From Methylocella sp. (GTDB taxonomy: Bacteria; Pseudomonadota; Alphaproteobacteria; Rhizobiales; Beijerinckiaceae), in NCBI GenBank assembly GCA_035503795.1, contig DATJTB010000114.1:1-39752 (forward strand): a DNA stretch of 39,752 nucleotides, written 5' to 3'. This document shows, piece after piece, positions 6,171-30,885 of this stretch. The translations under genes were made by a program, and so were the position numbers. How positions within the stretch are numbered: the first letter of the stretch is position 1; each line of letters starts with the position of its first letter. Under the pieces are notes generated by a model. It ran no database searches and was not told the origin of the DNA. It saw only the letters and a list, made by a program, of their open reading frames with translations.

Positions 6171-6350
6171 TAGGGTCAGGACCTAACGCGCTTATCGCTC
6201 GAACGGAATCGTTCGAGCGATAAGAAATCCCGCAAGATCAAGAAGTTGGAGCGAATTCTCGTCGCAAAAGTCTGTCAAGTTTTGCGGAATTCGCTCTAAT
6301 AAAGTACCCGCCGTGACCGTCATTACGAGCCATAATTAGTCCTGGCCAAG
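6171..6350. repeat. GGGTCAGGAC-ended small inverted-repeat element, interrupted by the subfamily A element
   Basis: Left end TAGGGTCAGGACCTA and right end ATTAGTCCTGGCC. Similar ends occur at 12688-12870 and 34116-34172. Confidence 0.55.
6184..6298 (+). repeat. 115-bp two-hairpin MITE/RIME-like element, subfamily A, copy 1
   Basis: TA-bounded. Hairpin 1 is CTTATCGCTCGAACG-GAAT-CGTTCGAGCGATAAG. Hairpin 2 is GAGCGAATTC..GCAAAA..TTTTGC.GAATTCGCTC. Near-identical copies at 11229-11343 (inverted) and 17043-17157. Confidence 0.9.
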
Positions 6351-6376
6351 ACTGGATTTTACGAGCTCGAACAGGG

Positions 6377-8449
6377 ATGACCAGTGCCATCGGCGATCAG
6401 CCAGGGTTCAGGAGGGCCAGTGGCCGATGGGCCAGGGCCTTGGCCCGCATGTTTCGGGTCGCGGGTCAGCCGCTGCTCTTTGGGCTGCGGCTGTGGGCCT
6501 CGGTCTGCCTGGCTCTCTACATCGCCTTTTGGCTTGAACTCGATAATGAGTTCTGGGCTGGCCTCACGGCCGCCATTACCTGCCAGCCGCAGCTTGGCGC
6601 CTCGCTGCGCAAAGGGTGGTATCGCATGGTTGGTACCTTGGTTGGCGCCATTTTGATCGTGGCGCTGACCGGGCTCTTTCCGCAACAACGTGCCCCTTTT
6701 CTCCTGGCTCTTGCGTCTTGGGCGGCCGCCTGCGCCATGGCCGCGACGCTTTTGCGCAATTTCGCATCCTATGCGGCGGCGCTGGCTGGTTACACGGCTG
6801 TGGTCATCGCGGGTGATGAGCTCGGTGCGACAGGCGGCCCGAACGTGAATGAAGTCTTCCTCCTCGCGGTCACGCGCGCGAGTGAAATCTGCATCGGCAT
6901 TGTGAGCGCCGGCATCGTTCTCGCCGGGACCGACTTCGGCGGTGTCCGGCGACGCCTTGCGGGGTCATTCGCGGCGCTTTCGGCTGAAATCACGGGTCGG
7001 TTTACCGGCATGTTGGCGTTGGCCGGGCCGGAACTGGCGGAGACAACGCCGATCCGGCGGGAGCTCGTGCGGCGGGTGATTGGCCTTGACCCGATCATCG
7101 ACCAGGCGAAAGGCGAATCGTCGCAAATCCGCCATCACTCGCCAATATTGCAAATGGCCGTTGACGGCTTATTCGCCGCTGTCGTCGGCTGGCGCGTGAT
7201 TGCGGTGCATTTGGCCAGGGTGCCGGACGGCGAGGCCCAGCTGGAAGCCGGTGCCGTCCTGCAGTGCATTCCACAAGAGCTGCGACAGGCCGAATATGGC
7301 GTGCCGGCAGCGTGGCTCACAAACCCGGCTGATCAAAGCGAGATGTGTGACGCGGCGGCGCGAGTGCTGACCACCATGCCGGCCAATACGCCATCGCTGC
7401 GGCTGCTCACGGACCAAACGGCCAAGGTGCTGACCGGCATTTCATCCGCGCTCGACGGGCTTGCGCTCCTTCTCTTGAATCCCATTCGCCAGCTTCCCTG
7501 GCACCCTAACGTCCAGGTCCGTGTGCCTGACTGGCTGCCTTCGCTCGTGAATGCGGGTCGCGCATTTGTCACGATCGGCGCCGTCATGATCTTCTGGATT
7601 CTCACTCAATGGCCGAACGGCGCCACGGCAATCACATTTACCGCAATCGCCGTCCTTCTCTTCGCGCCACGGGTCGATCAGGCCTACCAAGCGGCCATGG
7701 AGTTTGCCGCCGGCACGGCCCTGGGCACCGTCTTTTCCGCGATTATCAAATTTGCCGTGCTTCCGGGGATTGAAACCTTCGAGGGCTTCTGCCTCGTCAT
7801 CGGCCTCTTTCTGATACCCGCGGGCGCGCTGATCGCTCAACCGAGGCATACGGCGATGTTCACCTCAATGACGGTCTATTTCTGCGCGCTTGTGCAGCCC
7901 GCCAATGAGATGAGCTTCGATACCGCACAATTTTATAACAATGCCCTGGCGATCGTCACCGGTCTGGCCGTCGCCGCGTTTTCCTTCCGTATGCTACCCC
8001 CGCTCTCGCCTGTATTTCGGACCAGCCGACTCCTCGCGCTCACCTTACGCGATCTGCGCCGCCTCGCAGCGGGCCGCGTCTTATGGACATCCGGCAATTG
8101 GGAGAGCCTTCTATTCGGGAGACTGGAGGCACTGCCGGACACCGCCGAACCCTTGCAGCGTTCACAGCTTGTGACGGCCTTATCGGTCGGCAACGGGATC
8201 ATCGAGCTTCGCCACATCGTCTCAAGGCTTGATTTGAGTGAAGACCTCGATGCTGCATTGGCGGCCTTGGCGCGCGGAAACGGCGGGATCGCGGTCACAA
8301 GGCTCACCAGTCTCGACGGCCGTCTTGCCGCTTTCTCAGCCGGCAGATCGGGGCCGCTGCTTGCGCTCCAGGCGCGAAGCATTATCCTGACAATTTCGGA
8401 GGCGTTGAGAGAGCATGCCGCCTATTTTGAGTCCGGAGAGCCTTTGTGA
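6377..8449 (+). CDS. FUSC family (fusaric acid resistance / AaeB-like) inner-membrane efflux subunit
   Basis: 690 aa with two hydrophobic TM blocks. Motifs LRKGWYRMVGTLVGA, YAAALAGYT and RASEICIGI. Confidence 0.9.
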   Translation: MTSAIGDQPGFRRASGRWARALARMFRVAGQPLLFGLRLWASVCLALYIAFWLELDNEFWAGLTAAITCQPQLGASLRKGWYRMVGTLVGAILIVALTGLFPQQRAPFLLALASWAAACAMAATLLRNFASYAAALAGYTAVVIAGDELGATGGPNVNEVFLLAVTRASEICIGIVSAGIVLAGTDFGGVRRRLAGSFAALSAEITGRFTGMLALAGPELAETTPIRRELVRRVIGLDPIIDQAKGESSQIRHHSPILQMAVDGLFAAVVGWRVIAVHLARVPDGEAQLEAGAVLQCIPQELRQAEYGVPAAWLTNPADQSEMCDAAARVLTTMPANTPSLRLLTDQTAKVLTGISSALDGLALLLLNPIRQLPWHPNVQVRVPDWLPSLVNAGRAFVTIGAVMIFWILTQWPNGATAITFTAIAVLLFAPRVDQAYQAAMEFAAGTALGTVFSAIIKFAVLPGIETFEGFCLVIGLFLIPAGALIAQPRHTAMFTSMTVYFCALVQPANEMSFDTAQFYNNALAIVTGLAVAAFSFRMLPPLSPVFRTSRLLALTLRDLRRLAAGRVLWTSGNWESLLFGRLEALPDTAEPLQRSQLVTALSVGNGIIELRHIVSRLDLSEDLDAALAALARGNGGIAVTRLTSLDGRLAAFSAGRSGPLLALQARSIILTISEALREHAAYFESGEPL

Positions 8450-8649
8450 GGTTTACTGAGATCAACCTGTTCGGTGTTTACGTTGCGCCCATGTCGTTGA
8501 TGATGGTTGCGGCGTGGTTCATCACGATCACGCTGCGCCGGGTGGTGAGCCGCTACGGCTTATTGGCCTATGTGTGGCATCCGGCTTTATTTGTGTTCTC
8601 AGTTTATTTGATCGTACTTTCATCGATGACGCTGATCGTCGCGCGCTAA
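8446..8649 (+). CDS. DUF1656 (AaeX-like) small membrane protein
   Basis: 67 aa with EINLFGVYVAP and VWHPALF. GTGA overlap with the FUSC stop. Confidence 0.85.
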   Translation: MRFTEINLFGVYVAPMSLMMVAAWFITITLRRVVSRYGLLAYVWHPALFVFSVYLIVLSSMTLIVAR

Positions 8650-8669
8650 ATCGTTAGAAATCGATCTCC

Positions 8670-9644
8670 ATGTCCGAAGCTCAGAGCGATGCAAAGAGCC
8701 CCAAGGCAGCAGCCGAACGCGACGCCGTCTGGACGCCTGGGCTGCCTGGCCGCCCGAATATTGGCGCGCGCCTTAAGACCTTTCGGGTTTTGATCACTCT
8801 GGCAACGGTCGGGCTTGCCGTGATGCTGAGCTTCGCCATGTGGGACGCCTATATGGGGGCACCCTGGACGCGGGATGGAACGGTACGTGTCTATGTCGTC
8901 ACCATGGCGCCTGAGGTGGCTGGGCGAATCGTCGAACTTCCTGTCGCCGACAACCAGTTCGTGCATAAGGGCGATTTGCTGATGGTGATTGACCCGAGAG
9001 ACTACAGGATTGCCGTCAGCCACGCAGAGGCGGCGCTGAAGCAGGCTGAGGCCAATGCGCGCAACGCGGAGATACAGTCACAACGCCGGCAAAAGCTGAA
9101 TCTGAATGCCGCTAGCATAGAAGAGAAGCAGACTTATGCGACGACGGCGATTGCCGGCCAAGCGCAAGTCCAGCTCGCCATGGCCAACCTGGATCAGGCG
9201 CGGGTTAATCTCGAGCGTACGGAGGTCCGTTCTCCCGTTAATGGTTGGGTGACCCATCTGTTGGCGCAACTCGGTGACTATGCGAATGTCGGTCAGAATA
9301 TAATTTCCCTCGTCAACGCTGACTCATTTTGGGTTGACGGCTATTTCGAGGAGATCCATCTGGGTTCGATCCGCGAAGGCGACCCTGCCGAAGTCAAACT
9401 GATGGGTTATAGTGAGATCGTTCGTGGTCATGTCGAGAGCATCGCGCGGGGCATCAATGTTCCCAACGCAGAGGCTAACCCGCAAGGGCTTGCGACGGTC
9501 AATCCAATCTTCACTTGGGTGCGCCTTGCCCAGCGCATTCCGGTGCGCATCCATATCGATGAGGTCCCGCGAGGCGTGGTCCTGGCGGCTGGGATGACGG
9601 CCACCGTTCAGATCGATCCGCGGCCCCGACCACAAGCCAAATGA
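8670..9644 (+). CDS. HlyD/AaeA-family membrane fusion protein
   Basis: PWTRDGTV, VADNQFVHKGDLL, VNPIFTWVRLAQRIPVRI. Confidence 0.92.
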   Translation: MSEAQSDAKSPKAAAERDAVWTPGLPGRPNIGARLKTFRVLITLATVGLAVMLSFAMWDAYMGAPWTRDGTVRVYVVTMAPEVAGRIVELPVADNQFVHKGDLLMVIDPRDYRIAVSHAEAALKQAEANARNAEIQSQRRQKLNLNAASIEEKQTYATTAIAGQAQVQLAMANLDQARVNLERTEVRSPVNGWVTHLLAQLGDYANVGQNIISLVNADSFWVDGYFEEIHLGSIREGDPAEVKLMGYSEIVRGHVESIARGINVPNAEANPQGLATVNPIFTWVRLAQRIPVRIHIDEVPRGVVLAAGMTATVQIDPRPRPQAK

Positions 9645-9732
9645 TCATGATTTGTCGTGAAGCGCGGCCTGATCTCGAAAATTTGAGGTCCCATTGGCAC
9701 TGGAATCCTCGCAATCGGAATTTTTGAATTGA

Positions 9733-9901
9733 TAGAGCGGGATGCGAGCGCAAAACCGCTTCCCACTTCTGCTCATCCCGCACTAGATCACGATGATTTT
9801 GGATCGAATCGATCCAAAATCATGAAACGTGCTCGATTCTTATAATTTAGAGCGGGATGCGAGCGCAAAACCGCTTCCCACTTTTGCTCATCCCGCTCTA
9901 G
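9733..9901 (+). repeat. Composite palindromic element, subfamily B (module order hairpin 2, hairpin 1, hairpin 2)
   Basis: TAGAGCGGGATG...CATCCCGC(A/T)CTAG occurs twice (9733-9786 and 9848-9901), flanking ATGATTTTGGATCG-AAT-CGATCCAAAATCAT. The hairpin-1 module recurs at 30835. Confidence 0.9.
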
Positions 9902-10025
9902 AGGTTGCGGTTGCCCTGCTGTATGTCGTTGTCGTCTTGATCGCAAGGATAGCTGACGAGGCAAGACAGGATGTCGCGGTTTCCTCCTGGCTAGCCGTGA
10001 CCGCAAGACGGATGTGGAGCAAACG

Positions 10026-11231
10026 ATGACCCTATATTCGCGGCGCAGAATCTTAGCGACAACCGCAGCCGGCGGTGTCGTTGCAGCGGCGGCGGCCGGC
10101 CATGCAACCGAAGCTTATTCCCCCGCCGCCATGAGCGATCCCGGCCCGCGCAACCCGCCGCAGGAAGCGATCAACCCTTATGATTGGGAGTCGCTGCCGA
10201 CCGACCATGGCAATCTTGGCACACTGAGAACTTCATTCTCAGAGGTCCACAACCGCCATACCGATGCCGGCTGGGCACGTGAAGTCACGGTCCGCAATTT
10301 CCCGATCTCGAAAGCGATGGCCGGCGTCAATATGCGGCTTCCGGCCGGCGCCGTGCGCGAGCTGCACTGGCATGTGCCGGCTGAGTGGGCCTATGTGACC
10401 TATGGCGTCGGGCGAATTACCGGCGTTGATGCCAACGCTCGAAGACACATCTCGGACGTGAAAGCCGGCGATCTCTGGTTCTTTCCGGGCGGCGTGCCGC
10501 ACTCGATCCAGGGACTGGGCCCGGATGGATGCGAGTTCATTCTCGTCTTCAATGACGGCAATTTCTCGGAGGACAGCACGTTTCTGATCACCGACTGGTT
10601 CAATCACACGCCGAAGGATGTGCTGGCCAAGAATTTCAACGTGCCGCCATCGACCTTCGACAATATCCCGAAGAAGGATCTCTGGATCTTCAATGCGCCT
10701 TTGCCCGGCAGCCTCGCCGACGATCTGGCGCAGAGCACGCAGCCCGACGTGCCCAACCCTTACAAATTTCCGCTGGGCGATCAACCGCCGGCCTTTACTT
10801 CCACAGGCGGTTCGGTTCGCATCGCCGATTCGAAAAACTTCGCGGCGACGACCATGGCGGCCGCTCTTGTCGAGGTCGCGCCCGGCGGTTTGCGCGAATT
10901 GCATTGGCACCCAACCTCGGATGAGTGGCAATACTACATCAGTGGTACCGCCCGCATGGGTGTCTTCCATGGCGAAGGAAGGAATAATACGGTGTTGTTC
11001 CATCCAAGCGATGTCGGCTATGTGCCGCAGTCGATTGGCCATTATATCGAGAATGTCGGGAACGACACGCTCCGGTTTCTGGAGGTTTTCACCACTCCGG
11101 AATACGCCGACATATCGCTGGCGTCCTGGATGAACAATGTGCCCCATGAACTCGTCGCGGCGCATCTGAATATCGATCTCGCGACCTTGCGCAAAATGAC
11201 GCAAAAGAAGACCCCGGTGGTCCCGATTTAG
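10026..11231 (+). CDS. Oxalate decarboxylase family bicupin with Tat signal peptide
   Basis: Two cupin Mn motifs (RELHWH..AEW...HSIQG and RELHWHPTSDEW...GHY). Lid FSEDST resembles the OxdC SENST. N-terminal SRRRIL plus hydrophobic stretch. Confidence 0.88.
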   Translation: MTLYSRRRILATTAAGGVVAAAAAGHATEAYSPAAMSDPGPRNPPQEAINPYDWESLPTDHGNLGTLRTSFSEVHNRHTDAGWAREVTVRNFPISKAMAGVNMRLPAGAVRELHWHVPAEWAYVTYGVGRITGVDANARRHISDVKAGDLWFFPGGVPHSIQGLGPDGCEFILVFNDGNFSEDSTFLITDWFNHTPKDVLAKNFNVPPSTFDNIPKKDLWIFNAPLPGSLADDLAQSTQPDVPNPYKFPLGDQPPAFTSTGGSVRIADSKNFAATTMAAALVEVAPGGLRELHWHPTSDEWQYYISGTARMGVFHGEGRNNTVLFHPSDVGYVPQSIGHYIENVGNDTLRFLEVFTTPEYADISLASWMNNVPHELVAAHLNIDLATLRKMTQKKTPVVPI

Positions 11232-11343
11232 AGCGAATTCCGCAAAAGATGACCGCCTTTTGCGACGAGAATTCGCGCCAACTTCTTGATCTTGCGCGAT
11301 TTCTTATCGCTCGAACGATTCCGTTCGAGCGATAAGCGCGCTA
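11229..11343 (-). repeat. 115-bp two-hairpin element, subfamily A, copy 2 (inverted)
   Basis: Reverse complement of 6184-6298 with few mismatches. Its first TAG is the stop codon of the oxalate decarboxylase gene. Confidence 0.9.
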
Positions 11344-11492
11344 GGCTGGAAGCGGATATGCTTGGAGCAGAGGGAGGTTTTGCATTTGCTCCCGGTTATC
11401 TCGAGAAATGAAGGCGCGATAGCGCAGATACGCCCGCGCGATCTCATCCGCGCACAGTTGACTGCGTGCACAAAACCGCCTTGCGCTTTTGT

Positions 11493-12356
11493 TCATCCGG
11501 CTCTCACCGCAAGATTGTCAATCAGCCTTGTGCGGCCGAGCTTGGCAGCGGCCAGCAGCCTGATCGGCCCCTCCTCCATGGATTGGATCGGGGCCAGGCT
11601 CTCCGCATGGCGCGCCTCGCAATAATCGATGAGGAAGCCCGCCTCCGTCAGGCTTCGCCATGCTGCGGCAAGCGCCGGCTTAAGACCAATCCCGCTTTCA
11701 ATCTCGAAGGCGCATTGGCGCAAAGCGGCGTAAAGGCGCGGCGCTTTGGCGCGTTCCGCGGGCGACAAATAGACATTGCGGGATGAAAGCGCGAGGCCAT
11801 CTTCTTCCCGCACTGTTGGCACGGCGACGATGTTCGTTTCGAAATCGAGGTCGCGTGCCATGCGCGTCACGACTTTCAGTTGCTGATAATCCTTCTCGCC
11901 GAAGACGGCGATATCGGCGCGCGCGAGATTGATAAGCTTGGCGACGACCGTCGCCACGCCGGAAAAATGAGTCGGACGGAATCGATCCTCAAGGCCAGCA
12001 GCCGCCGGACCTTCAAGAGTGACGCGGGTGGCAAAATCCGGTGGATAGATTTGCGCAACATCCGGCGCGAAAATCAGATTGCCCCCCGCCTCGGCGAATT
12101 GAGCGGCATCGGCTTCGAGGGGGCGCGGATAGGCCGAAAAATCCTCGCCCGCGGCAAATTGGGTCGGATTGACGAAGATCGATAAAAGAATGCGCCGCGC
12201 CGCGCCTTGAGCGGCCCGCACCAAGGCCAGATGCCCCTCATGCAGCGCCCCCATCGTCGGCACAAGGGCGATCGTTTCTCCGGCCCGCCTCCATTGGGTA
12301 AGCCGCGTCCGCAGGCTTCCAACATCGCTCAATATTTCTGGAAAGCTTTCCGTCAT
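11493..12356 (-). CDS. panC: Pantoate--beta-alanine ligase
   Basis: VPTMGALHEGH, SIFVNPTQF, FGEKDYQQ, GLALSSRN, TRLIDN. Start is ATG 12356 (alternative TTG 12368). Confidence 0.96.
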   Translation of the reverse strand: MTESFPEILSDVGSLRTRLTQWRRAGETIALVPTMGALHEGHLALVRAAQGAARRILLSIFVNPTQFAAGEDFSAYPRPLEADAAQFAEAGGNLIFAPDVAQIYPPDFATRVTLEGPAAAGLEDRFRPTHFSGVATVVAKLINLARADIAVFGEKDYQQLKVVTRMARDLDFETNIVAVPTVREEDGLALSSRNVYLSPAERAKAPRLYAALRQCAFEIESGIGLKPALAAAWRSLTEAGFLIDYCEARHAESLAPIQSMEEGPIRLLAAAKLGRTRLIDNLAVRAG

Positions 12357-12687
12357 GCATCCGCTCAAGGGCTTGTTTGCAAGTTTGGTGAAAGAGAATC
12401 ACCCATCGCCACCCTCAAGGTCACAGACAGGTTCGCGGTTTGATCGTAAGCGGCTTCAGTGGACACAGGCGGTCAAACGCGGCTTTCTTTTGTTATATGC
12501 CGGCAATAAGGGCTGCGAGCATTGAATGCTTATATTCTTTCGGGCGAGCTCATAGCGCGGTGTCCGATCCTGGTCGCCTTCTGAAAAAAATAAAATCTAG
12601 TAGCGAAGACCAAGGTCAGATAATTTTTGTCTCATGCGCGCGGGCAGCCCGCGGCCCGGCCTTCCTTGCGCAAATCATTCCATGTGC

Positions 12688-12870
12688 TAAGGGTCAAAAT
12701 CTGATGAGCATGCCGTCCGAGTAACCGTCATTGCAAACCAACGGGTCGGGCTCCGCCAGCCTTATGACAGGCGCCGCGAAGCGACCCACGACAGACGCCG
12801 AAGCAATCTCATGGAGCTCACGCTCGCCATGAGATTGCCGGCCGGCACCATCATGAGGGCCTGACCCTAA
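12688..12870 (-). repeat. Degenerate REP-like element (GTCATTGC core) with GGGTCA...TGACCC ends
   Basis: TAAGGGTCAAAATC at left and GGCCTGACCCTAA at right, with an internal GCAATCTCATGG..CCATGAGATTGC hairpin. Its reverse complement aligns with 14658-14800. Confidence 0.65.
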
Positions 12871-12928
12871 GCCAGGCGCGCCGTCGGATTATCCCAACCT
12901 CACCCAGCCTCCCAGGTGCAAAGCTTTC

Positions 12929-13765
12929 ATGACGACCCGGATCGACCTTCGCTTTGCCGCGCTCGCACGGCAAAAACGTGCGGCTCTCGTGACTTTCGTG
13001 ATGGCGGGCGATCCCGATCTCGCGACGAGTCTCGCCTTGCTCAAGGCCCTGCCGGCGGCGGGGGCCGATGTGATCGAGCTCGGCATGCCCTTCACCGATC
13101 CGATGGCGGATGGGCCGGCGATCCAGGCGGCGGGACTGCGCGCCCTCAAGGCCGGGACGACGCTCGCCAAGACATTGGCGCTCGCCGCCGAATTCCGCGC
13201 GGCGGACGAGACGACGCCGCTCGTGCTCATGGGCTATTACAACCCCATCTATGTCTATGGGGTTGAGCGGTTCTTGCGCGATGCGAAGTCGGCTGGCGTC
13301 GATGGGCTGATCATCGTCGATCTGCCGCCGGAGGAAGATTCCGAGCTCTGCCTGCCGGCCCGCGCGGCGGGGCTCAATTTCATCCGGCTCGCGACGCCGA
13401 CGACGGATGAAGCGCGGCTGCCCACTGTGCTCGCCCATACCTCCGGCTTTGTCTATTATGTCTCGATCACCGGCATCACCGGTGCCGCGGCGCCGGACGT
13501 TGGCAAGGTGGCGGCGGCGGTCGGCCGGCTCAAGGCGCAGACCGCCCTGCCGGTCGCGGTCGGCTTCGGGGTGAAGAATGCGGCAAGCGCGGCGGCGATC
13601 GCTGCCCATGCCGATGGGGTGGTGGTCGGCTCGGCTCTTGTCGAGGCCTTGCGCGCCTCGCTCGATAAGAATGGAAAGGCGACCGGGAAAAGCGTAGAAA
13701 CGGTGACGGCGCTCGTCGCTGAGATCGCCAAGGGGGTGCGGCCCGCATTGGCCGCACGGGGCTAA
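12929..13765 (+). CDS. trpA: Tryptophan synthase alpha subunit
   Basis: [47 protein letters not shown]. Confidence 0.97.
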
Positions 13766-13774
13766 GGATAGGCC

Positions 13775-14644: not shown

Positions 14645-14657
14645 ATTCACATTTTAT

Positions 14658-16211: not shown

Positions 16212-16251
16212 ATCGGACAAAAATGTTTCACGTGAAACATTTTTGTCCGAT
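16212..16251. promoter_or_regulatory. parS centromere-like site within a 40-bp perfect palindrome
   Basis: ATCGGACAAAAA-TGTTTCACGTGAAACA-TTTTTGTCCGAT. The core 16224-16239 is the canonical ParB/Spo0J parS consensus. Confidence 0.85.
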
Positions 16252-16413
16252 CGGAGCGGCGTAGCTTACAAGAGCTCATACGCGAGCGCGCTTCAGACCT
16301 GTGGGGTGGTGCAAAAAATTGGTCATGTTGACGTTTGGATGGTGCGGAGGTGCATGGTGTCAACGCTAACTAGACCAAAACGCCGGAGCTTAAGATCCTT
16401 GCACGGAGCGTGT

Positions 16414-16706
16414 GGCTTCATCGATAGTGGAACGGACCTCAAAAATCCCAACTTCGCGGCGATGGCGGAATCTATCAGAGTGCGAGGAATCAGGCTTGAG
16501 GATCCAAGCGAAGTTGAAGGCGGTATTACCGATGCGATCGCCCATGACGGACCGGTTTTGATCGACGCGGTGGTCAGCCGAGTGGTGCTTCCCGTTCCGC
16601 CCAGCATCACGGCCGAATGGCTAAGGGCTTTACTCTTTACATGCTGAAGGCCGTCATGGCTGGCCGCGGTGATGAGCTCATTGACCACGCCCGGACGAAC
16701 CTCTGA
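16414..16706 (+). pseudogene. 3' remnant of a PoxB-type pyruvate:quinone oxidoreductase, frameshifted
   Basis: GTDLKNPNFAAMAES...HDGPVLIDAVV...PPSITAE, then a frameshift near 16618 into AKGFTLYMLKAVMAGRGDELIDHARTNL*. There is no N-terminal part. Confidence 0.8.
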
Positions 16707-16826
16707 CAATAACGCGAGTTCCAAATCGACGCTAAGGCACTTTCTGTTGTCGCGAATTCAATTCACGTTCACCATCTCATTTCACATCATCTTTCCGGCC
16801 TTCATGATCCGATTGGCCCCTGCTCG

Positions 16827-16988
16827 ATGATCGGCTATGATAGGGATGCCGCCATGGCGCACAAGGTGAATGACGAAGGCCTGACCCTGAAGGAGGCCGC
16901 GCTCCAGTCCAGCGACATCGACGAGAAGCGGTTCGACGAAGTCATCGACCCTCGGACGAGGGTTGGGTACGGGGTCGGCGGAGGTTGA
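16827..16988 (+). pseudogene. 3' remnant of a class II fumarase
   Basis: [41 protein letters not shown] aligns to the last ~53 aa of the intact FumC ([41 protein letters not shown]). Confidence 0.85.
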
Positions 16989-17042: not shown

Positions 17043-17157
17043 TAGCGCGCTTTCCGCTCGAACGGAATCGTTCGAGCGATAAGAAATCGCGCATGATCAA
17101 GAAGTTGGAGCGAATTCTCGTCGCAAAAGTCTGTCAACTTTTGCGGAATTTGCTCGC
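17043..17157 (+). repeat. 115-bp two-hairpin element, subfamily A, copy 3
   Basis: Same orientation as 6184-6298 and close in sequence. The right-hand TA is lost and there are a few stem mismatches. Confidence 0.9.
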
Positions 17158-20852: not shown

Positions 20853-22307
20853 ATGAATGAGCCGACGCACCCTCTCATGCACGAGACCCCGATCGGCATC
20901 GATGCGACCGGGACGCGGCGCGAGACGGACTCGATGGGTGAAATCGAGGTGCCAGCCGATCGCTATTGGGGGGCGCAAACCCAGCGCAGTCTGGTGCATT
21001 TCGCGATCGGCGACGATCGTATGCCGAAGCCTGTTTATCACGCCTATGGCTATGTCAAAAAGGCCGCGGCGCTCGTCAACGCCGCCGCCGGGCGGCTGCC
21101 GCAATGGAAAGCGGATGCCATTGTGCGCGCCGCCGACGAGGCGATCGCTGGCAAACTGGACGAGCATTTTCCGCTCTATGTCTGGCAGACCGGGTCTGGC
21201 ACCCAGTCGAATATGAACGTCAACGAGGTGCTTTCGAACAGGGCGATCAAGCTGCTCGGGGGGAAGATGGGCAGCAAGTCTCCCGTGCATCCGAACGACG
21301 ACGTCAATATGGGCCAGTCGTCGAATGATACCTTCCCGACTGCGATGCACATTGCCGCGGTGCTCGAATTGGAGAAGCACTTGCTGCCGCGCGCGGAAGC
21401 GCTGGCGATCGCGATCGAGGCGAAGGCGAACGAATGGAACGAGGTGGTCAAGATCGGGCGGACGCACCTTCAGGATGCCGTGCCGCTGACAGTCGGGCAG
21501 GAGTGGTCGGGGTGGGCGCATCAAATCCGCGAGGCGCTCGCCCGTATCCGCGCCTCGGAGACGGGTCTGTTCGAGCTGGCGGCTGGAGGGACGGCGGTTG
21601 GCACCGGGCTCAATGCGCCGCCGCACTTCAGCCGTGAGATCGCGGAGAAAATTGCCGAGCTGACCGGTGCCCCTTTTTTGACCGCGCCCAACAAATTTGC
21701 CGCACTAGGCGCGCTCGACGCGATGGTAGCTGCGATGGCGGCGGTGCGTGGACTCGCGGTTGCGTTGATGAAGATCGCCAATGACATGCGCTGGCTCGCC
21801 TCCGGTCCGCGATGCGGGCTCGGCGAGCTGATCTTGCCTGAGAATGAGCCAGGCTCCTCGATCATGCCGGGCAAGGTCAACCCGACCCAGCAGGAGGCCA
21901 TGGTGATGGTCTGCATTCAGGTGATCGGCGAAGACAACGCGGTCGCATTTGCCGGAAGCCAGGGAAACTTCGAGCTCAACGCGATGCGTCCGATCATCAT
22001 CAACAACTTTCTCCACTCCGTCCGTATCCTCGGCGATGCTTGCGAGAAGCTGCGGCATTTCTCGGTCGAAGGCGCACGGCTCAACCGCCGGCATATCGAC
22101 GACATGCTCGGCCGTTCGCTGATGCTGGTGACCGCGCTCAGCCCAATCATCGGCTACGACAAGGCCTCTGAAATCGCGCACAAAGCCAATGACGAGGGTC
22201 TGACCCTGAAGGAGGCTGCGCTTCGCTCCGGCTACATAGACGAGAGACGATTCGACGAGATCGTCGACCCGAAAAAAATGGTTGGGCAAGGTATCGCGGG
22301 AAGCTGA
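20853..22307 (+). CDS. fumC: Class II fumarate hydratase
   Basis: [20 protein letters not shown] and signature [13 protein letters not shown]. Likely start is ATG 20853 (or 20877); the ORF-track start overlaps the malic enzyme gene. Confidence 0.96.
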
Positions 22308-22445
22308 TGATTGCCTTTCGCGTGCTGGTGCCGATTGCCCGAATTCCCGTATGTCATCATCGATGCCGGGCAATATGACGGTGTGCCGGATGCCGATGAT
22401 GTAAAGCAGTGTGCAGCTGAGGCTTGTTTTTGCAGAAAGTAAAAA

Positions 22446-22745: not shown

Positions 22746-23004
22746 GCATCAGCCCACGCCCCTTGGCGATTTCTCGCGCTTCGGCGAAGATTTCATCAAC
22801 GGTGCGAGCGCTGACGCCACTGTCTTTGGAAGCGGCCAGCTTTTTCCGCAGTTCGTCCAAGGTCAGTTCCTGCTCACGGCGGTCGCGGTCACGGCGGACA
22901 AGATCGCGGACGTAATCGCTGATACTGGCGTAATCGCCCCGCCTGATCTGAGCCTCGATCCAGTCTTTCATGGGGTCGGGCAAGGAAACGGTCATTGTTG
23001 CCAT
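22738..23004 (-). CDS. ParD-family ribbon-helix-helix antitoxin (CC2985-like)
   Basis: MATMTVSLPDPMKDWIEAQIRRGDYASISDYVRDLVRRD, immediately upstream of the parE remnant. Confidence 0.9.
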   Translation of the reverse strand: MATMTVSLPDPMKDWIEAQIRRGDYASISDYVRDLVRRDRDRREQELTLDELRKKLAASKDSGVSARTVDEIFAEAREIAKGRGLMHE

Positions 23005-23291
23005 GTGCCTAGCCTCCTATTCCCTTCAGGCTATCAAAAATGGGAAAAAATAACATATATCCAGAAAAAATTTTTCGTTTTTAAAGCCCGACAGCGCGGT
23101 AGGGTGGCGCGTGGACGCTCGGAAGCATGCAGGTGGGCCAATTTTGGCCATCCAGAGTGCCGTCCGTTTAGCGCAGGATGCGGTCATTCCAAGTCAACGT
23201 GGTCCCGGTTGGCTCGACACCACGGCGAATTTGACGTAGTCGTGTCCCAGGGGCCGGGTCAGAACGGGCGGGCGCAAAATCTGCGCAACTT

Positions 23292-25466
23292 TCAGACCGC
23301 GTCCTGCGCCGCCGCCTTCACCGCACGCCGGTGCGCGTGCAGGATGAACTCTGTATAGCCGTTCGGCTGAGCACGGCCCTTGAATATGAGATCCGCCGCC
23401 GCCTGGAAGGCATGACCATTGAATGAAGGCGCCATCGGCTTGTAGAGCGGATCCCCTTTATTCTGCCGGTCGACGACGGCGGCCATTTTCCTCAGCGCTT
23501 CCATCACCTGTTCCGGTGTCGCAATACCTTGCAGCAGCCAATTGGCGATGTGCTGGCTTGAGATGCGCAGAGTGGCACGGTCTTCCATGAGGCCGATGTC
23601 GTGAATATCCGGCACTTTGGAGCAGCCGATGCCTTGGTCGACCCAGCGCACCACATAGCCCAGAATGCCCTGGCAATTATTGTCGAGCTCGGCCTCGATA
23701 TCTGATGGGGCCCAATTCGCCCGGCAGACCGGAATGGCGAGGAGATCGGAGAGCGGTGGCGGACGACGGCGGGCGAGCACCTTCCAGCGGCTCGCGACAT
23801 CGACCTTGTGATAATGCACGGCGTGCAAGGTGGCCGCGGTGGGCGAGGGCACCCAGGCGGTATTGGCGCCGGCGAGCGGATGGACGATCTTCTGTGCCAG
23901 CATATCGGCCATCCGGTCGGGTGCGGCCCACATGCCCTTGCCGATTTGCGCCCGGCCGGGCAAGCCGCAGGCAATGCCGATATCGACATTGGCATTCTCA
24001 TAAGCGGCGATCCATTCGGTATTTTTCATGTCATTCTTGCGCACCATGGCGCCGGCTTCCGTGGAGGTGTGAATCTCATCGCCCGTCCGGTCGAGGAAGC
24101 CGGTATTGATGAAGAACACGCGATCGGCGGCCGCTGCGATGCAGGCTTTGAGATTGACCGAGGTGCGCCGCTCCTCATCCATGATCCCCATCTTGAGCGT
24201 GAAGCGGGGAAGCCCCAGCATATCCTCGACCCCGGCAAAGAGATCATTGGCGAGGGTCACCTCGAAGGGCCCGTGCATTTTCGGCTTGACGATATAGATC
24301 GAGCCGTGCCGGCTGTTTCCCGGCCCGCTGACCCGCTTGAGATCGTGCAGGGCGATCAAACTCGTCACGGCTGCGTCGAGAATGGTTTCCGGGATCGGCG
24401 CGCCATTTTCACCGAGCACCGCATCGGTTTCCATGTGGTGGCCGACATTGCGGACGAGGAGCAGGCTTCGTCCATGCAAGATCAGGGGCTCTCCATCCCG
24501 CCCGATGTAATGGCGATCCTCCGAAAGCCGCCGCTCGATCAGCAAGCCGTTCTTTTCGAGCGTCGCGCTGAGATCCCCCTTCATAAGCCCGAGCCAGTTG
24601 TGGTAGACGCCAACCTTGTCTTCGGCATCGACACAGGCGACGCTGTCCTCGAGATCGATGATCGTGCTCAAGGCGGATTCGAGGATGACGTCGGCGACCC
24701 CGGCCTTGCTCTCCGCGCCAACAAGGCTGTTGTGATCGATTTCGATCTCGATATGAAGGCCATGATGGCGCAGAAGAAGAGTCAGGGAATCGAGCGATTT
24801 TCTCCGGTATCCGGCGAAGCGTCCGGGATGGCGCAGCCTCGTATCGAGCCCATTTTCGAGGAGAGCGACGAGCTCGCCGCCCACGACCTTATATTCGACA
24901 ACCGCCTTGTGGTTGCCCTTGGCGAGCGGCACGATGTCGTCAAGAAGAAGGCGAACCCATTCGATGACCTTGGCCCCCCGTACCTTGTTGTAGCCCTTTG
25001 TGCGCGTCGCGCCATCCGTCTCGGGGATGGCGTCCGTGCCATAGAGCGCGTCGTAAAGACTGCCCCAGCGGGCGTTGGCCGCATTGAGGGCATAGCGGGC
25101 GTTCGAGGCCGGGACGACAAGCTGCGGCCCTGCGACCCGCGCGACTTCGAGCACATTTTCGGTGCGGACGGTGAAATCGGCAGGTGCCGGGACGATGTAG
25201 CCGATCTCCGCCAAGAATTTCGCATAGTCGGCCGGATTGAACGGCATCGTCGCGGTGCGGCGGTGATAATCATCGATCTTCGCCTGCAACTCGTCTCGGA
25301 ACAGCAATTGGGCGCGGATGCGCGGCGCGAATTGGCCAATCAATCCGGCAAGACCCGTCCAGAACGAAGCCGCCTCGATCCCGGTACCGGGCAAGGCCTC
25401 GTCCTGGATGAAGTCCGCCAAGGCTTTCTCGACCTTGAGACTGCCGATGTGCTCATAAGCCGTCAT
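23292..25466 (-). CDS. glcB: Malate synthase G
   Basis: 724 aa. [54 protein letters not shown]. Confidence 0.97.
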
Positions 25467-25590
25467 GGTTCCTCACTGTGGGTAAGGGCCGTATACGTAT
25501 TCTTGTTTTGTTGGGGAGATTAAATCCTAATGCCCAGAAATGACTCTTCCAGCTCAAAGGTAACAAATTCCAGCAGACTGGGGCTCGCAA

Positions 25591-26928
25591 TCACGCAGCC
25601 TGTCCCAGCGCGGAAGATTCCCATCCTTTGCGTTGCGGGTCCTTAATCAGCATAGCAATGAAAAAGCCATCCGTGCCGCTTTTCAGCGGGGATAGACGCA
25701 AGCCGAAGCCGTGCCGCGAGGCAAAGCCAGCAAGGTCCGGGAGCCCAGCTTTCTCGGCCATCTCCCGGGCGGAGAGACTCGCATACTCCCTATGGGCAGC
25801 GAGAAATTCCGCGATACGGTCTTCATTTTCCTCCTTGAGAACAGAACAGGTCACATAGAGGAGCCGGCCGCCCGGCTTTAGGAAACGGTGCGCCGCTTCG
25901 ATCGTTTCGATTTGCTCCGCGACGCGGAGCTTGAGGCTACCTGGCCGCATCCGCCATTTCGCATCCGGATTGCGCCGCCACACGCCGCTCCCGGTGCAGG
26001 GCACATCCACGAAAACGAGATCGCAGCGTCCTTCGAGCGCATCGAGTCCCGGCCTCCGTCCGTGCGGAGGGTGGAGCTGCACATTGCGGACGCCGGCCCG
26101 ATCGAGCCTCGGATGGCTGCGCATGAGTCTCGCCCCATCGCGGTCGGCCGCATGGATCTGACCCTTGTTCTGCATCAAGGCGGCCAATGCCAAGCTCTTG
26201 CCACCGGCACCCGCGCAAAGATCGAGCACCTGCTCGCCCGGCTTCGCGAGCGAAAGGAGCGCGGCGAGCTGCGAGGCTTGATCCTGGACCTCGATGAGCC
26301 CTTTAATATAGGCGGGTTCGGCGGCAAGCGGCGGCGGTCGTCCGTCGAACGCGAGGGGCAAACGGAGGCCGACCGGAGAATAGGGGGTTAGCTCAGCGCC
26401 GAGATGGGCGAGGCGCGCTTGAACTTTTGCGCGCGTGGTCTTGAGCGTGTTGACCCGCAAATCGACCGGCGCTCGGGTCGCGAGCGCTTGCGTTTCAGCC
26501 AGGGTCTCCGCTCCGAAAGCCGAATTCAGGAAGGGTTCCAGCCACTGTGGAAAATCGCCGGCAATCCAGGGAGGTGCCCCTTCGAGGCTCGCCTTGGCGA
26601 GCCGCGCCCACTCTTCCTCGGTGAGGGGCCGCGGTGCATGCGCGACATCTGTGCAAAGCGCCGCGACCGTCTCCGCCTCAAGCCCGCGGACCCAATGTAG
26701 AACACCGAGGATGACTGCCCGCGGCGTTTCCTCCCCCATGAGGTAGGCGCTCGAAGCCCGCTTTCGTTGCGCATCATAGATCAACGAAGCGATCGCTGTA
26801 CGGTCCTTGGCGCCAGCGAAACGATGCGAAAGGCCCCAAGCCTTCAAGGCATCGGCCGCCGGCCGCTTCAATGTTTCGATCTCGCCCAGAACTTCGATTG
26901 CGGCCGAGATGCGCGCCGGAGGTGTCAT
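25591..26928 (-). CDS. RsmB/NOP family RNA m5C methyltransferase
   Basis: VQDQASQ, DLCAGAGGK, DVPCTGSG, YVTCS, TDGFF. Confidence 0.93.
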   Translation of the reverse strand: MTPPARISAAIEVLGEIETLKRPAADALKAWGLSHRFAGAKDRTAIASLIYDAQRKRASSAYLMGEETPRAVILGVLHWVRGLEAETVAALCTDVAHAPRPLTEEEWARLAKASLEGAPPWIAGDFPQWLEPFLNSAFGAETLAETQALATRAPVDLRVNTLKTTRAKVQARLAHLGAELTPYSPVGLRLPLAFDGRPPPLAAEPAYIKGLIEVQDQASQLAALLSLAKPGEQVLDLCAGAGGKSLALAALMQNKGQIHAADRDGARLMRSHPRLDRAGVRNVQLHPPHGRRPGLDALEGRCDLVFVDVPCTGSGVWRRNPDAKWRMRPGSLKLRVAEQIETIEAAHRFLKPGGRLLYVTCSVLKEENEDRIAEFLAAHREYASLSAREMAEKAGLPDLAGFASRHGFGLRLSPLKSGTDGFFIAMLIKDPQRKGWESSALGQAA

Positions 26929-26955
26929 GTGGGATCGATCCTCATTACGCGGCGC

Positions 26956-27378
26956 TCAAGGGCCTGAAAGAATTTGGAAGGTAAAAACACCCCACATGCC
27001 GAGCAGAATAAGCACGCCGGCGATAAAGAACTGGCCACGTAACGGCACATAATTGGAAGTCGTGAAGACATAGGCATGCGCGAGCCGAGTTGCAACGAAA
27101 AGCCATTCAAGCACGATGAAGGTAAGACCGGCTTTTTGGGTCGAGACCGAAAGCGCGACAAGGACATAGAACAAGACCGGGATTTCAAACTGATTTTGGA
27201 AGCAATTGCTGATTTGCTGCGCGCGATCCGGCCAGCGATTCTGCTTCAATGAGATGTCCTGCCACTTGAGTATACGGCTCTTGAAAAGATGGGTCCGTTC
27301 AAAGGCCAGCCAGAGAATGAGCGCAAAACTCAGACCGACCTGAAAAAAAAGCGGCAGAAGAACAGCTTTAAGGCTCAT
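26956..27378 (-). CDS. MAPEG family membrane protein
   Basis: Hydrophobic 140 aa with NQFEIPVLFY and RLAHAY. Lies between guaB and the RsmB-like gene. Confidence 0.8.
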   Translation of the reverse strand: MSLKAVLLPLFFQVGLSFALILWLAFERTHLFKSRILKWQDISLKQNRWPDRAQQISNCFQNQFEIPVLFYVLVALSVSTQKAGLTFIVLEWLFVATRLAHAYVFTTSNYVPLRGQFFIAGVLILLGMWGVFTFQILSGP

Positions 27379-27439
27379 ACTTTAGACTCTACGTTGGCCG
27401 TCGGACAAGGCGGTAACTAAGCGGCGCCTTGATGCTGGC

Positions 27440-28927
27440 TCACTCGCTGGTCGGATAATTCGGGCTTTCCCGAGTGATCGCCACGTCGTGCACATGGCTT
27501 TCGCGCAGGCCCGCCAAAGAAATGCGGATGAATTCCGCGCGGGACTGGAATTCCGCTATATCCCGCGCGCCGACATAGCCCATGGCGGCCCGTAAGCCGC
27601 CGGCCAATTGGTGCAGAATGACAGAGGCCGGGCCTCGATAGGGCACCTGTCCCTCGACCCCTTCCGGGACAAGCTTCAATTGATCGCTGACGTCCTGCTG
27701 GAAATAGCGGTCCGCCGAACCGCGGGCCATCGCGCCGACCGATCCCATGCCGCGATAGGACTTGAACGAGCGACCCTGATAGAGATAGACCTCGCCGGGG
27801 CTCTCATCGGTTCCAGCGAGCAGCGAACCGATCATCACGCTATCGGCGCCGGCTGCGATCGCCTTGGCGACATCTCCCGAATATTTGATGCCGCCATCCG
27901 CGATGACCGGAATATTGGCGTCCTGCGCCGCCTTGGCGCAATTCAGGATGGCGGATAGCTGCGGCACGCCGACACCGGCGACGATCCGCGTCGTGCAAAT
28001 GGAACCGGGGCCGATTCCGACCTTGATCGCATCGGCGCCGGCGTCGATCAGCGCCTTGGCCCCATCACTCGTCGCGACATTGCCGGCGATGACCCCGGCC
28101 TTATTGGAGGCTCGCTTGACCCGCGAGACCTGATCGAGCACGGCCTGCGAATGGCCATGCGCCGTGTCGATCACGATGCAATCGGCGCCGGCATCGATCA
28201 GCATGAGCGCTCGCTCATAACCCGCGTCGCCTACACTCGAAGCGGCGGCCACCCTGAGGCGGCCCTCGGCATCCTTGCAGGCGTCCGGATGCAGGCTCGC
28301 CTTCTCGATGTCCTTGACGGTGACAAGTCCGACGCAACGGAAATCCTCGTCGACGACGATCAATTTTTCGAGCCGATGCTGATGCAACAGGCGGCGCGCC
28401 TCATTCTCGCTGACGCCTTCCCGCACAGTGATCAGGTTTTTGGTCATCATCTCGCTCACCGGCTGTGCGGGATCATCGGCGAAGCGGACATCGCGATTGG
28501 TCAATATGCCGCAAAGCCTTGCCTTCCTGTCGCCGGGGCCGCGCTCAACCACCGGAATGCCGGAGATTCCGTGCCGGCGCATGAGGGCCAGTGCGTCGGC
28601 GAGCGTGGCATCGGGGAAAATAGTGATCGGATCGACCACCATGCCGCTTTCATAGCGCTTGACCTTGCGGACTTCCTCGGCCTGGTCAGCTGGGCTGAAA
28701 TTGCGATGGATCACGCCGATACCGCCCGCCTCGGCAATCGCGATCGCAAGCCTCGCCTCGGTCACCGTATCCATCGCAGAAGAAAGTATCGGTATGTTCA
28801 AGCTGATCGTCGAGGTGAGCCTGGTCTTGAGTTCGGCCGTGCGCGGCAAGACGGCCGAATGGCCCGGCAGCAACAGGACGTCGTCAAAGGTCAGCGCTTC
28901 TTGCAGGGGTTGGTGGATCCGGGCCAA
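27440..28927 (-). CDS. guaB: IMP dehydrogenase
   Basis: [19 protein letters not shown] pair, catalytic [20 protein letters not shown] start. Confidence 0.97.
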
Positions 28928-29370
28928 AGAGAACTCCGTGACATAAGCGTCGGCGCGAACGCAAAAGATTCATCATTGGCGCCCCGGCAGTGGCGGCACC
29001 CTATTTTTGCGCATCTTTTCCGGAGTGCGTCGGTGCCAACGGCCTTTGCATTTCGAAATCCATGAGAGTTTCGGGAATATGAAAGCCTGCGTGTCAACTC
29101 GGCCTGCGCCAAGCCGAGCGTTGCCGGGCCGCTCATAGCACGCTCCAAGTCCTGCGCAAATACGGCCTTGTGCTTGGCTTCAAGACCCCCACCTGCCGCA
29201 TGGACATGGTGCGTGTCGGCCGACCTTGCCAGTCCTTCATGAACCCGTCCTGGCGAAGTATTCAATTACGCTGCAAGCCTTCACATATTGGTTAGACTGG
29301 GATTTTTCCGTCTCGGTTGAATCGGGCATGATTTTCTCTAAGACCTTCTGCGTGGCTGCTGGTTGTAACT

Positions 29371-30837
29371 GTGCCTTGGGAGAAGGGTTTGCCAACCTAT
29401 TTGATTTCTGCGCTCACGGTCGCTTTCGCCCTGTTCATGGAAAATCTCGATTCGACGATCATTGCGACCTCTTTGCCTGCCATGGCGGCTGATCTTCAAG
29501 AAGACCCGATATCCCTCAAGCTGGCGCTCACTTCCTATCTTGTTTCCCTAGCCATTTTCATTCCGGCGAGCGGCTGGGTGGCCGACCGTTTCGGTGCCCG
29601 CACCATTTTCCGCATTGCCATCTTGATCTTCACGCTTGGCTCGATTCTCTGCGGCATGTCGTCGAGCCTGCCTATGCTGGTCGGGGCGCGCATCGTGCAG
29701 GGTCTTGGTGGTGCCCTGATGGTTCCGGTTGGACGGCTTGTTCTCTTGCGCTCGATCGACCGGTCCGATCTCGTGAATGCCTTGGCCTTTCTGACCATCC
29801 CAGCCCTGCTTGGGCCGATCATGGGGCCGCCGCTCGGCGGCTTCATTACCACCTATTTTCACTGGCGATGGATCTTCTGGATCAATGCGCCGATCGGCGT
29901 TGCCGGCATTTTGATCGCGACCCTCTATTTGGACGAGGTCCAAAGCCAAGTGGTCGGGCCACTCGACGTCACGGGCTTTCTCCTCTGCGGATTTGGACTT
30001 GCCTTTCTCCTCTTCGGATTTGGCGAGGCAGGGCGCGGGCTCCTGCCCTGGCAAGCCGTGGTGCTCCTCGGCGGCCTCGGGATGCTGGCGCTTGCCCTCT
30101 ATATCCCGCATGCCCGGCGTGCGACGGCCCCCTTGATCGATCTGCGGCTCCTGTCGATCCAGACGTTTCGCGCGAGCGTGCTTGGCGGCTCGCTTTTCCG
30201 GATCGGCATCGGCTCGATTCCCTTCTTGCTGCCGCTCATGCTGCAGACGGGCTTTGGTCTGTCGGCGTTTCAATCGGGCTCGATCACCTTTATCGCTTCG
30301 GTCGGATCCATGGCCATGAAGGCCACGGCAGCCCCTCTTCTGAGACTCCTTGGCTTTCGTTTTGTGCTTGTCTTCGACGCGATCTTGAGCGCCGGGTTTC
30401 TTGGCAGCTACGGCTTTTTCACGCCAGCGACGCCAGTCCTCCTCATGATGGGGGTTCTGTTGGCCAGCGGCTTCGTGCGTTCCCTTGAATTTACGAGCCT
30501 TAATGCGATCGCCTTTGCCGAGATCGCCCCGGTGCAAATGAGCCGGGCCGTGAGCTTTTCCTCGGCGGCTCAGCAATTATCCTTGAGCCTCGGCGTGTCA
30601 GCCGGGGCTGGTGTGCTCCAGGGATTTGCCTATTTTCATCCAGGCGAAGACGTTCTCACCCTGACGAATTTCAAATGGACCTTCATCGCGATGGCTGCCA
30701 TTTCGATGAGTGCCGCCATGACTTTCCTGCGCCTGCCGAGGGGCGCCGGCGCGCAGCTCATCGAACAGCCAAAGCCGCACACGAGCCAAAAGCCCGCTCA
30801 AAAGGCGGAGACGACAGAGTATTTGGGCCAGCTTTAG
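29371..30837 (+). CDS. MFS transporter, DHA2-like (14 TM)
   Basis: MENLDSTIIATSLP, GWVADRFG, GPIMGPPLGG, WIFWINAPIG. The start may be TTG 29389. Confidence 0.92.
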   Translation: MPWEKGLPTYLISALTVAFALFMENLDSTIIATSLPAMAADLQEDPISLKLALTSYLVSLAIFIPASGWVADRFGARTIFRIAILIFTLGSILCGMSSSLPMLVGARIVQGLGGALMVPVGRLVLLRSIDRSDLVNALAFLTIPALLGPIMGPPLGGFITTYFHWRWIFWINAPIGVAGILIATLYLDEVQSQVVGPLDVTGFLLCGFGLAFLLFGFGEAGRGLLPWQAVVLLGGLGMLALALYIPHARRATAPLIDLRLLSIQTFRASVLGGSLFRIGIGSIPFLLPLMLQTGFGLSAFQSGSITFIASVGSMAMKATAAPLLRLLGFRFVLVFDAILSAGFLGSYGFFTPATPVLLMMGVLLASGFVRSLEFTSLNAIAFAEIAPVQMSRAVSFSSAAQQLSLSLGVSAGAGVLQGFAYFHPGEDVLTLTNFKWTFIAMAAISMSAAMTFLRLPRGAGAQLIEQPKPHTSQKPAQKAETTEYLGQL

Positions 30838-30885
30838 ATCACGATGATTTTGGATCGAATCGATCCAAAATCATGAAACGTGATC
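30835..30885 (+). repeat. Solo hairpin-1 module of the subfamily B element
   Basis: TAGATCACGATGATTTTGGATCGAATCGATCCAAAATCATGAAACGTGATC, nearly identical to 9784-9834. Begins at the MFS TAG stop. Confidence 0.9.

What the first reader, a model, noticed from the sequence alone, without database searches (positions are those of the whole stretch)
6184..30885. Family of TA/TAG-bounded two-hairpin elements that conserve structure but not sequence
Seen: subfamily A (6184, 11229, 17043) and subfamily B (9784-9900, 30835) have different stem sequences but the same blueprint over about 115-117 bp. The order is TAG, an outer stem (GCGCG/CGCGC vs GATCACG/CGTGATC), a 14-15 bp perfect stem around GAATCG, a GAAA bulge, a linker, then GAGCG.. 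with a 5-nt bulge, GCAAAA-loop-TTTTGC and a ..CGCTCTA end. A third divergent type may lie at 5440-5541. Known: Rhizobiales carry palindromic mosaic repeats (RIME, Bru-RS) whose mobilising enzyme is not clear to me. Inference: wholesale compensatory change implies selection on an ssDNA or RNA fold, i.e. a non-autonomous element recognised by shape or a structured RNA tag.
Basis: partly seen in the sequence, partly recalled or inferred. Interest (0 to 1): 0.75.

Follow-up and report, generated by a model that had tools for sequence, protein, structure and literature searches.

The report
CIR-type repeats carry IS630 transposon ends
These ~115-base two-hairpin repeats (about 430 whole copies in this genome) belong to a class known from alphaproteobacteria since the 1990s. 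They duplicate a TA on insertion and their left end copies the end of an IS630 transposon, which is therefore the likely enzyme that moves them, a question the reviews had left open.

Summary
Subfamilies A, B and C share one two-hairpin blueprint (A vs B: 46% identity, 20 of 34 matched pairs swapped). The genome holds 430 full copies (1.8% of bases), and the blueprint recurs in 27 of 301 genomes of the order.

The class is known: CIR/RIME/Bru-RS. B is 82% identical to a S. meliloti repeat.

New here:
- Insertion at YTAR with a TA duplication, shown by nested insertions.
- The left 28 bp match the left inverted repeat of one IS630 subgroup (TAGAGC-N16-GAATC; GANTC at position 23 in 106 of 134 IS left ends). 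This also explains the CcrM site in the loop. An intact copy of this IS630 lies in the genome.

Against:
- The right end matches only over positions 1-14.
- Elements and this IS630 do not co-occur significantly (9/26 vs 68/274, p=0.35).

An RNA tag is not supported: no orientation bias, no G-U preference, no positional conservation, and resident copies decay. Template switching between arms can produce much of the covariation.

Verdict: a known class of MITE, with a testable candidate transposase.

The parts
5441..5540 (-). Subfamily C element (105-bp type), left hairpin with GAATC; right-end TA decayed to TG/CA
   Evidence: 63 full copies in the genome
6171..6185 (+). IS5/IS427-type terminal remnant into whose TA the A copy inserted
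   Evidence: after in-silico excision the joined flanks match an uninterrupted copy at C280:2308-2346 (85%, E 8.5e-6); IS5 ends
6184..6298 (+). Subfamily A element, TA to TA, GAATC at position 23
9733..9785 (+). Extra B right hairpin, head-to-tail with the next copy and sharing its TA
9784..9900 (+). Subfamily B1 element, GAATC at position 23; 82% identical over 117 nt to a S. meliloti 1021 pSymB repeat
11229..11343 (-). Subfamily A element; the TAG at its right end is the stop codon of the oxalate decarboxylase-family gene 10014-11231
11453..11507 (+). Decayed B-type right hairpin
   Evidence: 65% to the 9733 copy
17043..17157 (+). Subfamily A element, right TA lost
30835..30887 (+). B left hairpin (right half decayed to ~30945); its TAG is the stop codon of the MFS gene 29371-30837; 21 of 24 relatives have no element here

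Best explanation
These are CIR/RIME-class miniature transposons that insert at YTAR, duplicate the TA, and carry an IS630-type left end, so they are likely moved in trans by transposases of the TAGAGC-ended IS630 subgroup. Shown: the target, the TA duplication, the match of the left 28 bp and the right 14 bp to IS630 ends, and an intact IS630 of this type in the genome. Inferred: the transposase binds the two outer ends as double-stranded DNA, cuts the element out and pastes it at a new YTAR. The loop GANTC is the GANTC of the IS630 left end and may put movement under CcrM methylation control. Each hairpin is an outer end plus an internal inverted copy of it. Template switching between the arms copies changes across, which gives compensatory change without selection on resident copies. 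The bulges and lost inner TAs would keep the inner copies from being used as ends. An IHF-like site in the linker of A and C would help bend so short an element.
For: Target and duplication: Y before and R after in 119 of 133 full copies with both ends intact, the two sides independent. An A copy nested in a B2 copy at C51 restores an ordinary B2 when removed with one TA. Partner: complete 1058-bp IS630 at C250, ends C-TAGAGC...GCTCTA-G, with HTH ORF, A7G slippage site and a DDE ORF without stops. IS ends: GANTC at position 23 in 59 of 79 and 47 of 55 distinct left ends from two independent sets; the same position in A, B and the C consensus. Profile of positions 8-28 (own IS left out): element left ends score 12-20 bits, reached by 2-5 of 32,033 other TAG sites, and the top-scoring of those sites are IS or element remnants. 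One IS630 from the genus matches the A and C left ends at 23 of 28 positions and the C right end at its first 14 of 14. In 28 elements from other genomes, positions left free by the search pattern fit the IS630 profile (0 of 5000 shuffles as high). Template switching: the B1 bulge is precisely deleted in 10 and copied to the other arm in 5 of 141 copies, and the A mismatch is repaired in either direction in 34 of 106. IS630-family transposase duplicates TA and needs only ~24-30 bp ends (PMC2170065, passages).
Against: The right end fits IS630 only at positions 1-14 (and weakly 21-24). Its AAAAGT core is in 0 of 145 IS right ends, and positions 15-28 score -1 to -13 bits against an IS median of 12. 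No significant co-occurrence: 9 of 26 pattern-positive vs 68 of 274 pattern-negative genomes have this IS630 (p=0.35). Four of 10 element-bearing genomes have no DDE_3 match at all. The hairpin-with-bulge plan is kept across about 20 genera, more than cut-and-paste alone requires. Skipping the bulge restores an IS-like inner end in B1 but not in A. The IHF-like site is absent from B (0 of 159 linkers within one mismatch). No parent IS with these internal sequences was found, and no empty allele in two runs.
Confidence: 0.7

Rival explanations
1. The elements descend from IS630 ends but are now moved by a dedicated enzyme that reads the bulged hairpins in single-stranded DNA, as RAYT does for REPINs.
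For: Strong cross-genus covariation: 16 of 37 and 15 of 38 pairs changed on both sides, 0 of 500 shuffles as high. The right-hairpin core is conserved and not found in IS ends. IS630 was not found in 4 of 10 element-bearing genomes. Same-family neighbours are head-to-tail 27 to 2 and share private changes.
Against: A TA duplication is a DDE signature; HUH enzymes make none (established knowledge). No transposase or HUH nuclease among 60 of the 66 genes flanked on both sides (6 of the 60 had no Pfam hit, and the 6 not scanned were 5 long genes plus the window's oxalate decarboxylase gene, named). All 3 Y1_Tnp matches in the genome contain stops. Tandem arrays also fit local slippage.
Confidence: 0.15
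2. They are MITEs of IS427-group IS5 elements, which also use YTAR and duplicate TA.
For: IS711 duplicates TA at YTAR and is associated with Bru-RS repeats (PMC2266754, passages). DUF4096 transposases occur in 52 of 58 genomes of the genus.
Against: Ends callable near the 24 printed IS5 loci begin TAGG(T/G/C) or GAGCCTG with different subterminal sequence; several calls were spurious (judged by eye, no profile built). The IS711/Bru-RS link is reported as an insertion hot spot.
Confidence: 0.05
3. They are kept as structured RNA tags (terminators, stabilisers or RNase sites).
For: Very stable folds. Twice as frequent per free YTAR in convergent as in divergent gaps (84/820 vs 66/1355, p=1e-5). 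In 36 full copies the terminal TAG is a stop codon, so many copies are probably co-transcribed.
Against: Orientation near gene 3' ends is 65 vs 73 (p=0.55). G-T vs A-C single changes are 60:53 and 89:84. One-sided breaks outnumber compensated doubles 186:4 (A) and 326:15 (B1). Median substitution in stems is close to that in loops. 0 of 23 relatives carry an element after gatA; 3 of 24 do after the MFS gene, of another family and orientation. No Rfam match. The convergent excess also fits removal from promoters.
Confidence: 0.08

Closest known systems
CIR1-4 of Caulobacter and Brucella (Chen and Shapiro 2003, as described in PMC2229807)
   Same: About 110 bp, two stem-loop arms joined by a linker, GANTC at a terminal loop, TA at both termini, intergenic.
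   Different: The review lists TIR as absent, target duplication as unknown and the mechanism of mobility as open. Here imperfect TIRs (10-12 of 16), a TA duplication and an IS630 end match are found. CIR sequences themselves were not compared because the paper is not held.
RIME repeats of Sinorhizobium (the name for the matched repeat is recalled; the record had no repeat annotation)
   Same: Subfamily B matches full length in 138 of 148 hit plasmid records, 133 of the 148 being Sinorhizobium; 82% to S. meliloti 1021 pSymB, 16 places.
   Different: Far higher copy number here. Subfamily A matches only Methylocystis and Methylosinus plasmid records.
Bru-RS1/Bru-RS2
   Same: 103-106 bp palindromic intergenic repeats (PMC10800456, PMC2267715, passages), the size of the C type.
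   Different: No sequence comparison was made.
RUP of Streptococcus pneumoniae / IS630-Spn1
   Same: A ~107-bp TA-bounded MITE assigned to an IS630 by similarity of ends (PMC2229807), the same logic as here.
   Different: RUP folds end to end. These elements have two internal hairpins and unequal ends, with only the left a full IS end.
REP/REPIN with RAYT (recalled)
   Same: Abundant intergenic hairpins whose shape outlasts their sequence.
   Different: TA duplication, IS-like ends, and no repeat-flanked HUH gene found.

Membership tests
CIR/RIME/Bru-RS class | ~110 bp, two stem-loop arms plus linker | tested here: met
CIR/RIME/Bru-RS class | GANTC at the loop of one arm | tested here: met
   kept in 94/106 A, 109/167 B1, 36/85 B2, 37/63 C
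CIR/RIME/Bru-RS class | TA at both termini; intergenic | tested here: met
   4 of 430 full copies lie inside ORFs called by my own simple gene finder
CIR/RIME/Bru-RS class | Sequence match to a named published element | tested here: inconclusive
   82% to a S. meliloti repeat whose name could not be checked; original papers not held
IS630-dependent MITE | TA target duplication | tested here: met
IS630-dependent MITE | Left end similar to the terminal repeat of an autonomous IS630 | tested here: met
IS630-dependent MITE | Right end similar to the terminal repeat | tested here: inconclusive
   positions 4-14 in the top 0.02-0.3% of 8,951 YTAG sites; positions 15-28 do not fit
IS630-dependent MITE | Autonomous partner in the same genome | tested here: met
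   C250 element
IS630-dependent MITE | Co-occurrence with the partner across genomes | tested here: not met
   9/26 vs 68/274, p=0.35; the strict pattern misses many carriers, and MITEs can outlast an IS
IS630-dependent MITE | Binding, excision and insertion by the transposase | not testable with these tools
   needs an experiment
REPIN/RAYT system | HUH (Y1) gene flanked by the repeats; no target duplication | tested here: not met
IS427-group (IS5) MITE | Ends match IS5 terminal repeats | tested here: not met
   small sample, judged by eye
Structured cis-acting RNA | Covariation of stems | tested here: met
Structured cis-acting RNA | Strand preference, G-U tolerance, conserved position | tested here: not met
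Structured cis-acting RNA | Expression and defined transcript ends | not testable with these tools
   no RNA run available

The most novel reading that the evidence does not exclude
The whole CIR/RIME/Bru-RS class is one ancient, order-wide parasite of TAGAGC-type IS630 transposases. It pairs a true IS630 left end, gated by CcrM methylation, with a specialised bulged-hairpin right end read partly by shape. It re-tunes its arms by template switching each time a new IS630 invades, so its bursts would be tied to the cell cycle.
Probability: 0.3. Interest if true: 0.75.

Novelty: new member of a known kind. Interest (0 to 1): 0.5.

Why it matters
A 2007 review says the role of the CIR GANTC site and the mechanism of CIR mobility were undetermined, and my ten searches found no later answer in the held library. 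The end match gives one explanation for both and names an enzyme to test. These repeats make up 1.8% of this genome, can supply stop codons, and hold 639 of its 9,852 GANTC sites. The case is also a caution for RNA-motif screens: strong covariation here comes from mobile DNA palindromes, not from an RNA.

Tried and rejected
- Rfam at gathering threshold: no match.
- Original papers (Chen and Shapiro 2003; Osteras 1995) are not held; one guessed id also failed. Halling and Bricker 1994 was not tried. They may already mention IS-like ends.
- No RNA holder listed, so nothing can be said on expression.
- Contigs of three DNA runs showed no empty allele among the joints listed. Contigs drop rare variants, so this is not absence.
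- Relatives are only 72-84% identical in coding DNA, too far for base-level empty sites. Only presence or absence was read.
- A dedicated flanked mobiliser was not found.
- Other IS630 subgroups have different ends (TAGTAC, TAGTGT, TAGTGG, TACCAA).
- An IS630-left-end pattern found nothing in 5 element-bearing genomes, but one of them does hold this IS630, so the pattern is insensitive.
- Solo halves are mostly hairpin deletions of whole elements rather than independent units (inspected by eye, up to 7 per class).
- Three look-ups in earlier scan notes returned nothing.
- No covariance model was built; profile HMMs, an IUPAC pattern and pair counts were used instead.
- Dropped rows: two IS loci with mis-called left ends and the genome's own IS were left out of the profiles; 26 of 167 B1 copies under 80% identity were left out of the pair counts; two own-genome loci were left out of the 28 independent elements.
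- Loci from the unpublished genome G043 were not analysed. It enters only the tools' genus tallies.
Full report
Observation. A and B fold far better than shuffles and differ by wholesale compensatory change: 54 of 117 identical, 20 of 34 matched pairs swapped. Profile HMMs found 697 non-overlapping hits in the 3.64-Mb assembly, 430 of them full length, in six models A, B1, B2, C, D and E. Only the right half of D was modelled. A strict blueprint pattern hit 27 of 301 genomes and 20 of 125 genera of the order, with 0 hits for the reversed control. The hits fall into ~115-bp and ~105-bp types and fold the same way. Hand-picked cross-genome alignments of 8 B-type and 7 A-type sequences covary strongly, with changes on both sides far outnumbering G-U changes (30 vs 2 cells in the B type).

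Known class. Delihas (PMC2229807; parts 1 and 2 of 3 read) describes CIR elements as ~110 bp, two arms and a linker, GANTC at a loop, TA termini. It lists TIR as absent, target duplication as unknown, and says the mechanism of mobility needs more information. A 2024 review (PMC10969869, passages) mentions CIR only as intergenic and never mentions IS630; Delihas 2011 (PMC3184786, passages) only tabulates it. Subfamily B matches a S. meliloti pSymB repeat at 82% over its whole length; that this is RIME1 is my recollection. I also read passages of PMC2267715, PMC10800456, PMC2266754, PMC1273637, PMC2573895, PMC2873474 and PMC2170065, and no supplements. The original CIR and RIME papers were not held. 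Searches listed no title linking these repeats to IS630, and none of the papers I opened does. Most subscription papers are outside the library, so prior art cannot be excluded. A CcrM-like methyltransferase gene is in the genome (best family CcrM, E 2e-126 on a partial query, below the whole-protein cut-off).

Mobility. Full copies sit in Y-TA...TA-R (119 of 133 with both ends intact), and the outer bases vary independently, which points to a 2-bp duplication at YTAR. Excising 409 copies in silico gave 49 junction-spanning matches, mostly trivial tandem self-matches. The clean case is an A copy inside a B2 copy at C51, where removal with one TA restores a normal B2. The window's own 6184 copy sits in an IS5-type end remnant with an uninterrupted counterpart at C280. 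Neighbours of different families are in random orientation (24 tandem, 23 inverted), as expected for independent insertion into the YTAR that element ends provide. Same-family neighbours are tandem 27 to 2 and share private changes, as expected for local duplication. Positions are not conserved in the genus. Copies are not very young: A copies have a median 93% identity to their consensus, and 15 of 106 have a dispersed partner at 99% or more.

Partner. The genome has one complete IS630 (C250, 1058 bp, C-TAGAGC ends, HTH ORF, A7G slippage site, DDE ORF) and three remnants. From 110 loci of relatives, ends were called for 82 (79 distinct). A second set of 80 loci gave 55 left and 69 right ends; there the end caller required a YTAGAG-like start but not GANTC. 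GANTC begins at position 23 in 59 of 79 and 47 of 55 left ends, the position it has in A, B and the C consensus. On positions 8-28, element left ends score 12-20 bits, against an IS median of 18 and a background mean of -27. In 28 elements from other genomes, positions not fixed by the search pattern fit the profile beyond all 5000 shuffles. Right ends fit over positions 1-14 but carry an AAAAGT core seen in 0 of 145 IS right ends. IS5 ends and other IS630 subgroups look different. Against the model, co-occurrence is not significant (9/26 vs 68/274), and 4 of 10 carriers had no DDE_3 match. This is compatible with elements outlasting episodic IS invasions, but it is not support.

Why hairpins covary. 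Within families, one-sided breaks dominate (A 186 vs 4 compensated, about 1 expected; B1 326 vs 15, about 3 expected), and G-T and A-C changes are equal. Resident copies therefore decay without a strand-specific fold being kept. The small excess of compensated doubles comes with signatures of arm-to-arm copying: precise loss of the bulge, its complement appearing on the other arm, and the A mismatch repaired in both directions. Any selection on the fold must act at amplification. None of the 28 independent elements keeps a TA end on both inner arms. In B1 the bulge moves the inner copy out of IS register, though not in A. An IHF-like site (consensus recalled) lies in the linker of 61% of 105 A and 36% of 61 C copies within one mismatch, against under 1.2% in controls, but not in B. 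These roles are inferences.

Gene context, from a simple gene caller (2,662 genes): 4 of 430 copies lie inside ORFs, there is no orientation bias, 36 supply a stop codon with either end (16 left, 20 right), and there is a twofold excess in convergent over divergent gaps.

Verdict. A real, abundant member of the CIR/RIME/Bru-RS class. It behaves like an IS630-dependent MITE (confidence 0.7), with the right hairpin unexplained. Novelty lies in the target duplication and the partner link, not in the structure. Interest 0.5.

Noticed in passing
genome G000, e.g. C35:3927-3967; not in the window: 89 exact copies of a 16-base palindrome resembling parS (label recalled) on 88 contigs, 1 inside an ORF, each within a ~110-bp degenerate repeat. 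Far more than the few parS sites I recall as usual; it may be a mobile repeat carrying parS.
   Followed up: partly
IS630 left ends (L001:878-945 and relatives): This IS630 subgroup carries further GANTC sites behind position 23 (a second near 34-35 and a third in a TGATTCA motif upstream of the start codon), suggesting CcrM control of the IS itself.
   Followed up: partly
window 51-399: CRISPR array at the contig end: 6 repeats spaced 61 bases (type I-E-like repeat, recalled), next to a YifB ATPase gene.
   Followed up: no
window 16243-16988: A pyruvate dehydrogenase C-terminal fragment and a 167-base, 72% copy of the fumC 3' end (22141-22307) lie just before the intact genes, apparently a decayed duplication.
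   Followed up: no
window 6171-6185 and 12856-12870: Short IS5/IS427-type terminal remnants like the left end of the IS5 at C7.
   Followed up: partly
L384, L387, L392 (after the MFS stop codon): Three relatives carry an A-type element in the opposite orientation at the site where this genome has B: repeated independent insertion at one spot.
   Followed up: partly
genome G000: CTAG is strongly depleted (2,517 vs ~13,400 expected) and GANTC mildly (9,852); 639 GANTC sites lie in the elements. Terminal TAs decay faster than internal positions.
   Followed up: no
G000:C274:4855-5793: A 312-aa tyrosine recombinase gene flanked by elements on both sides, probably housekeeping XerC/D.
   Followed up: no
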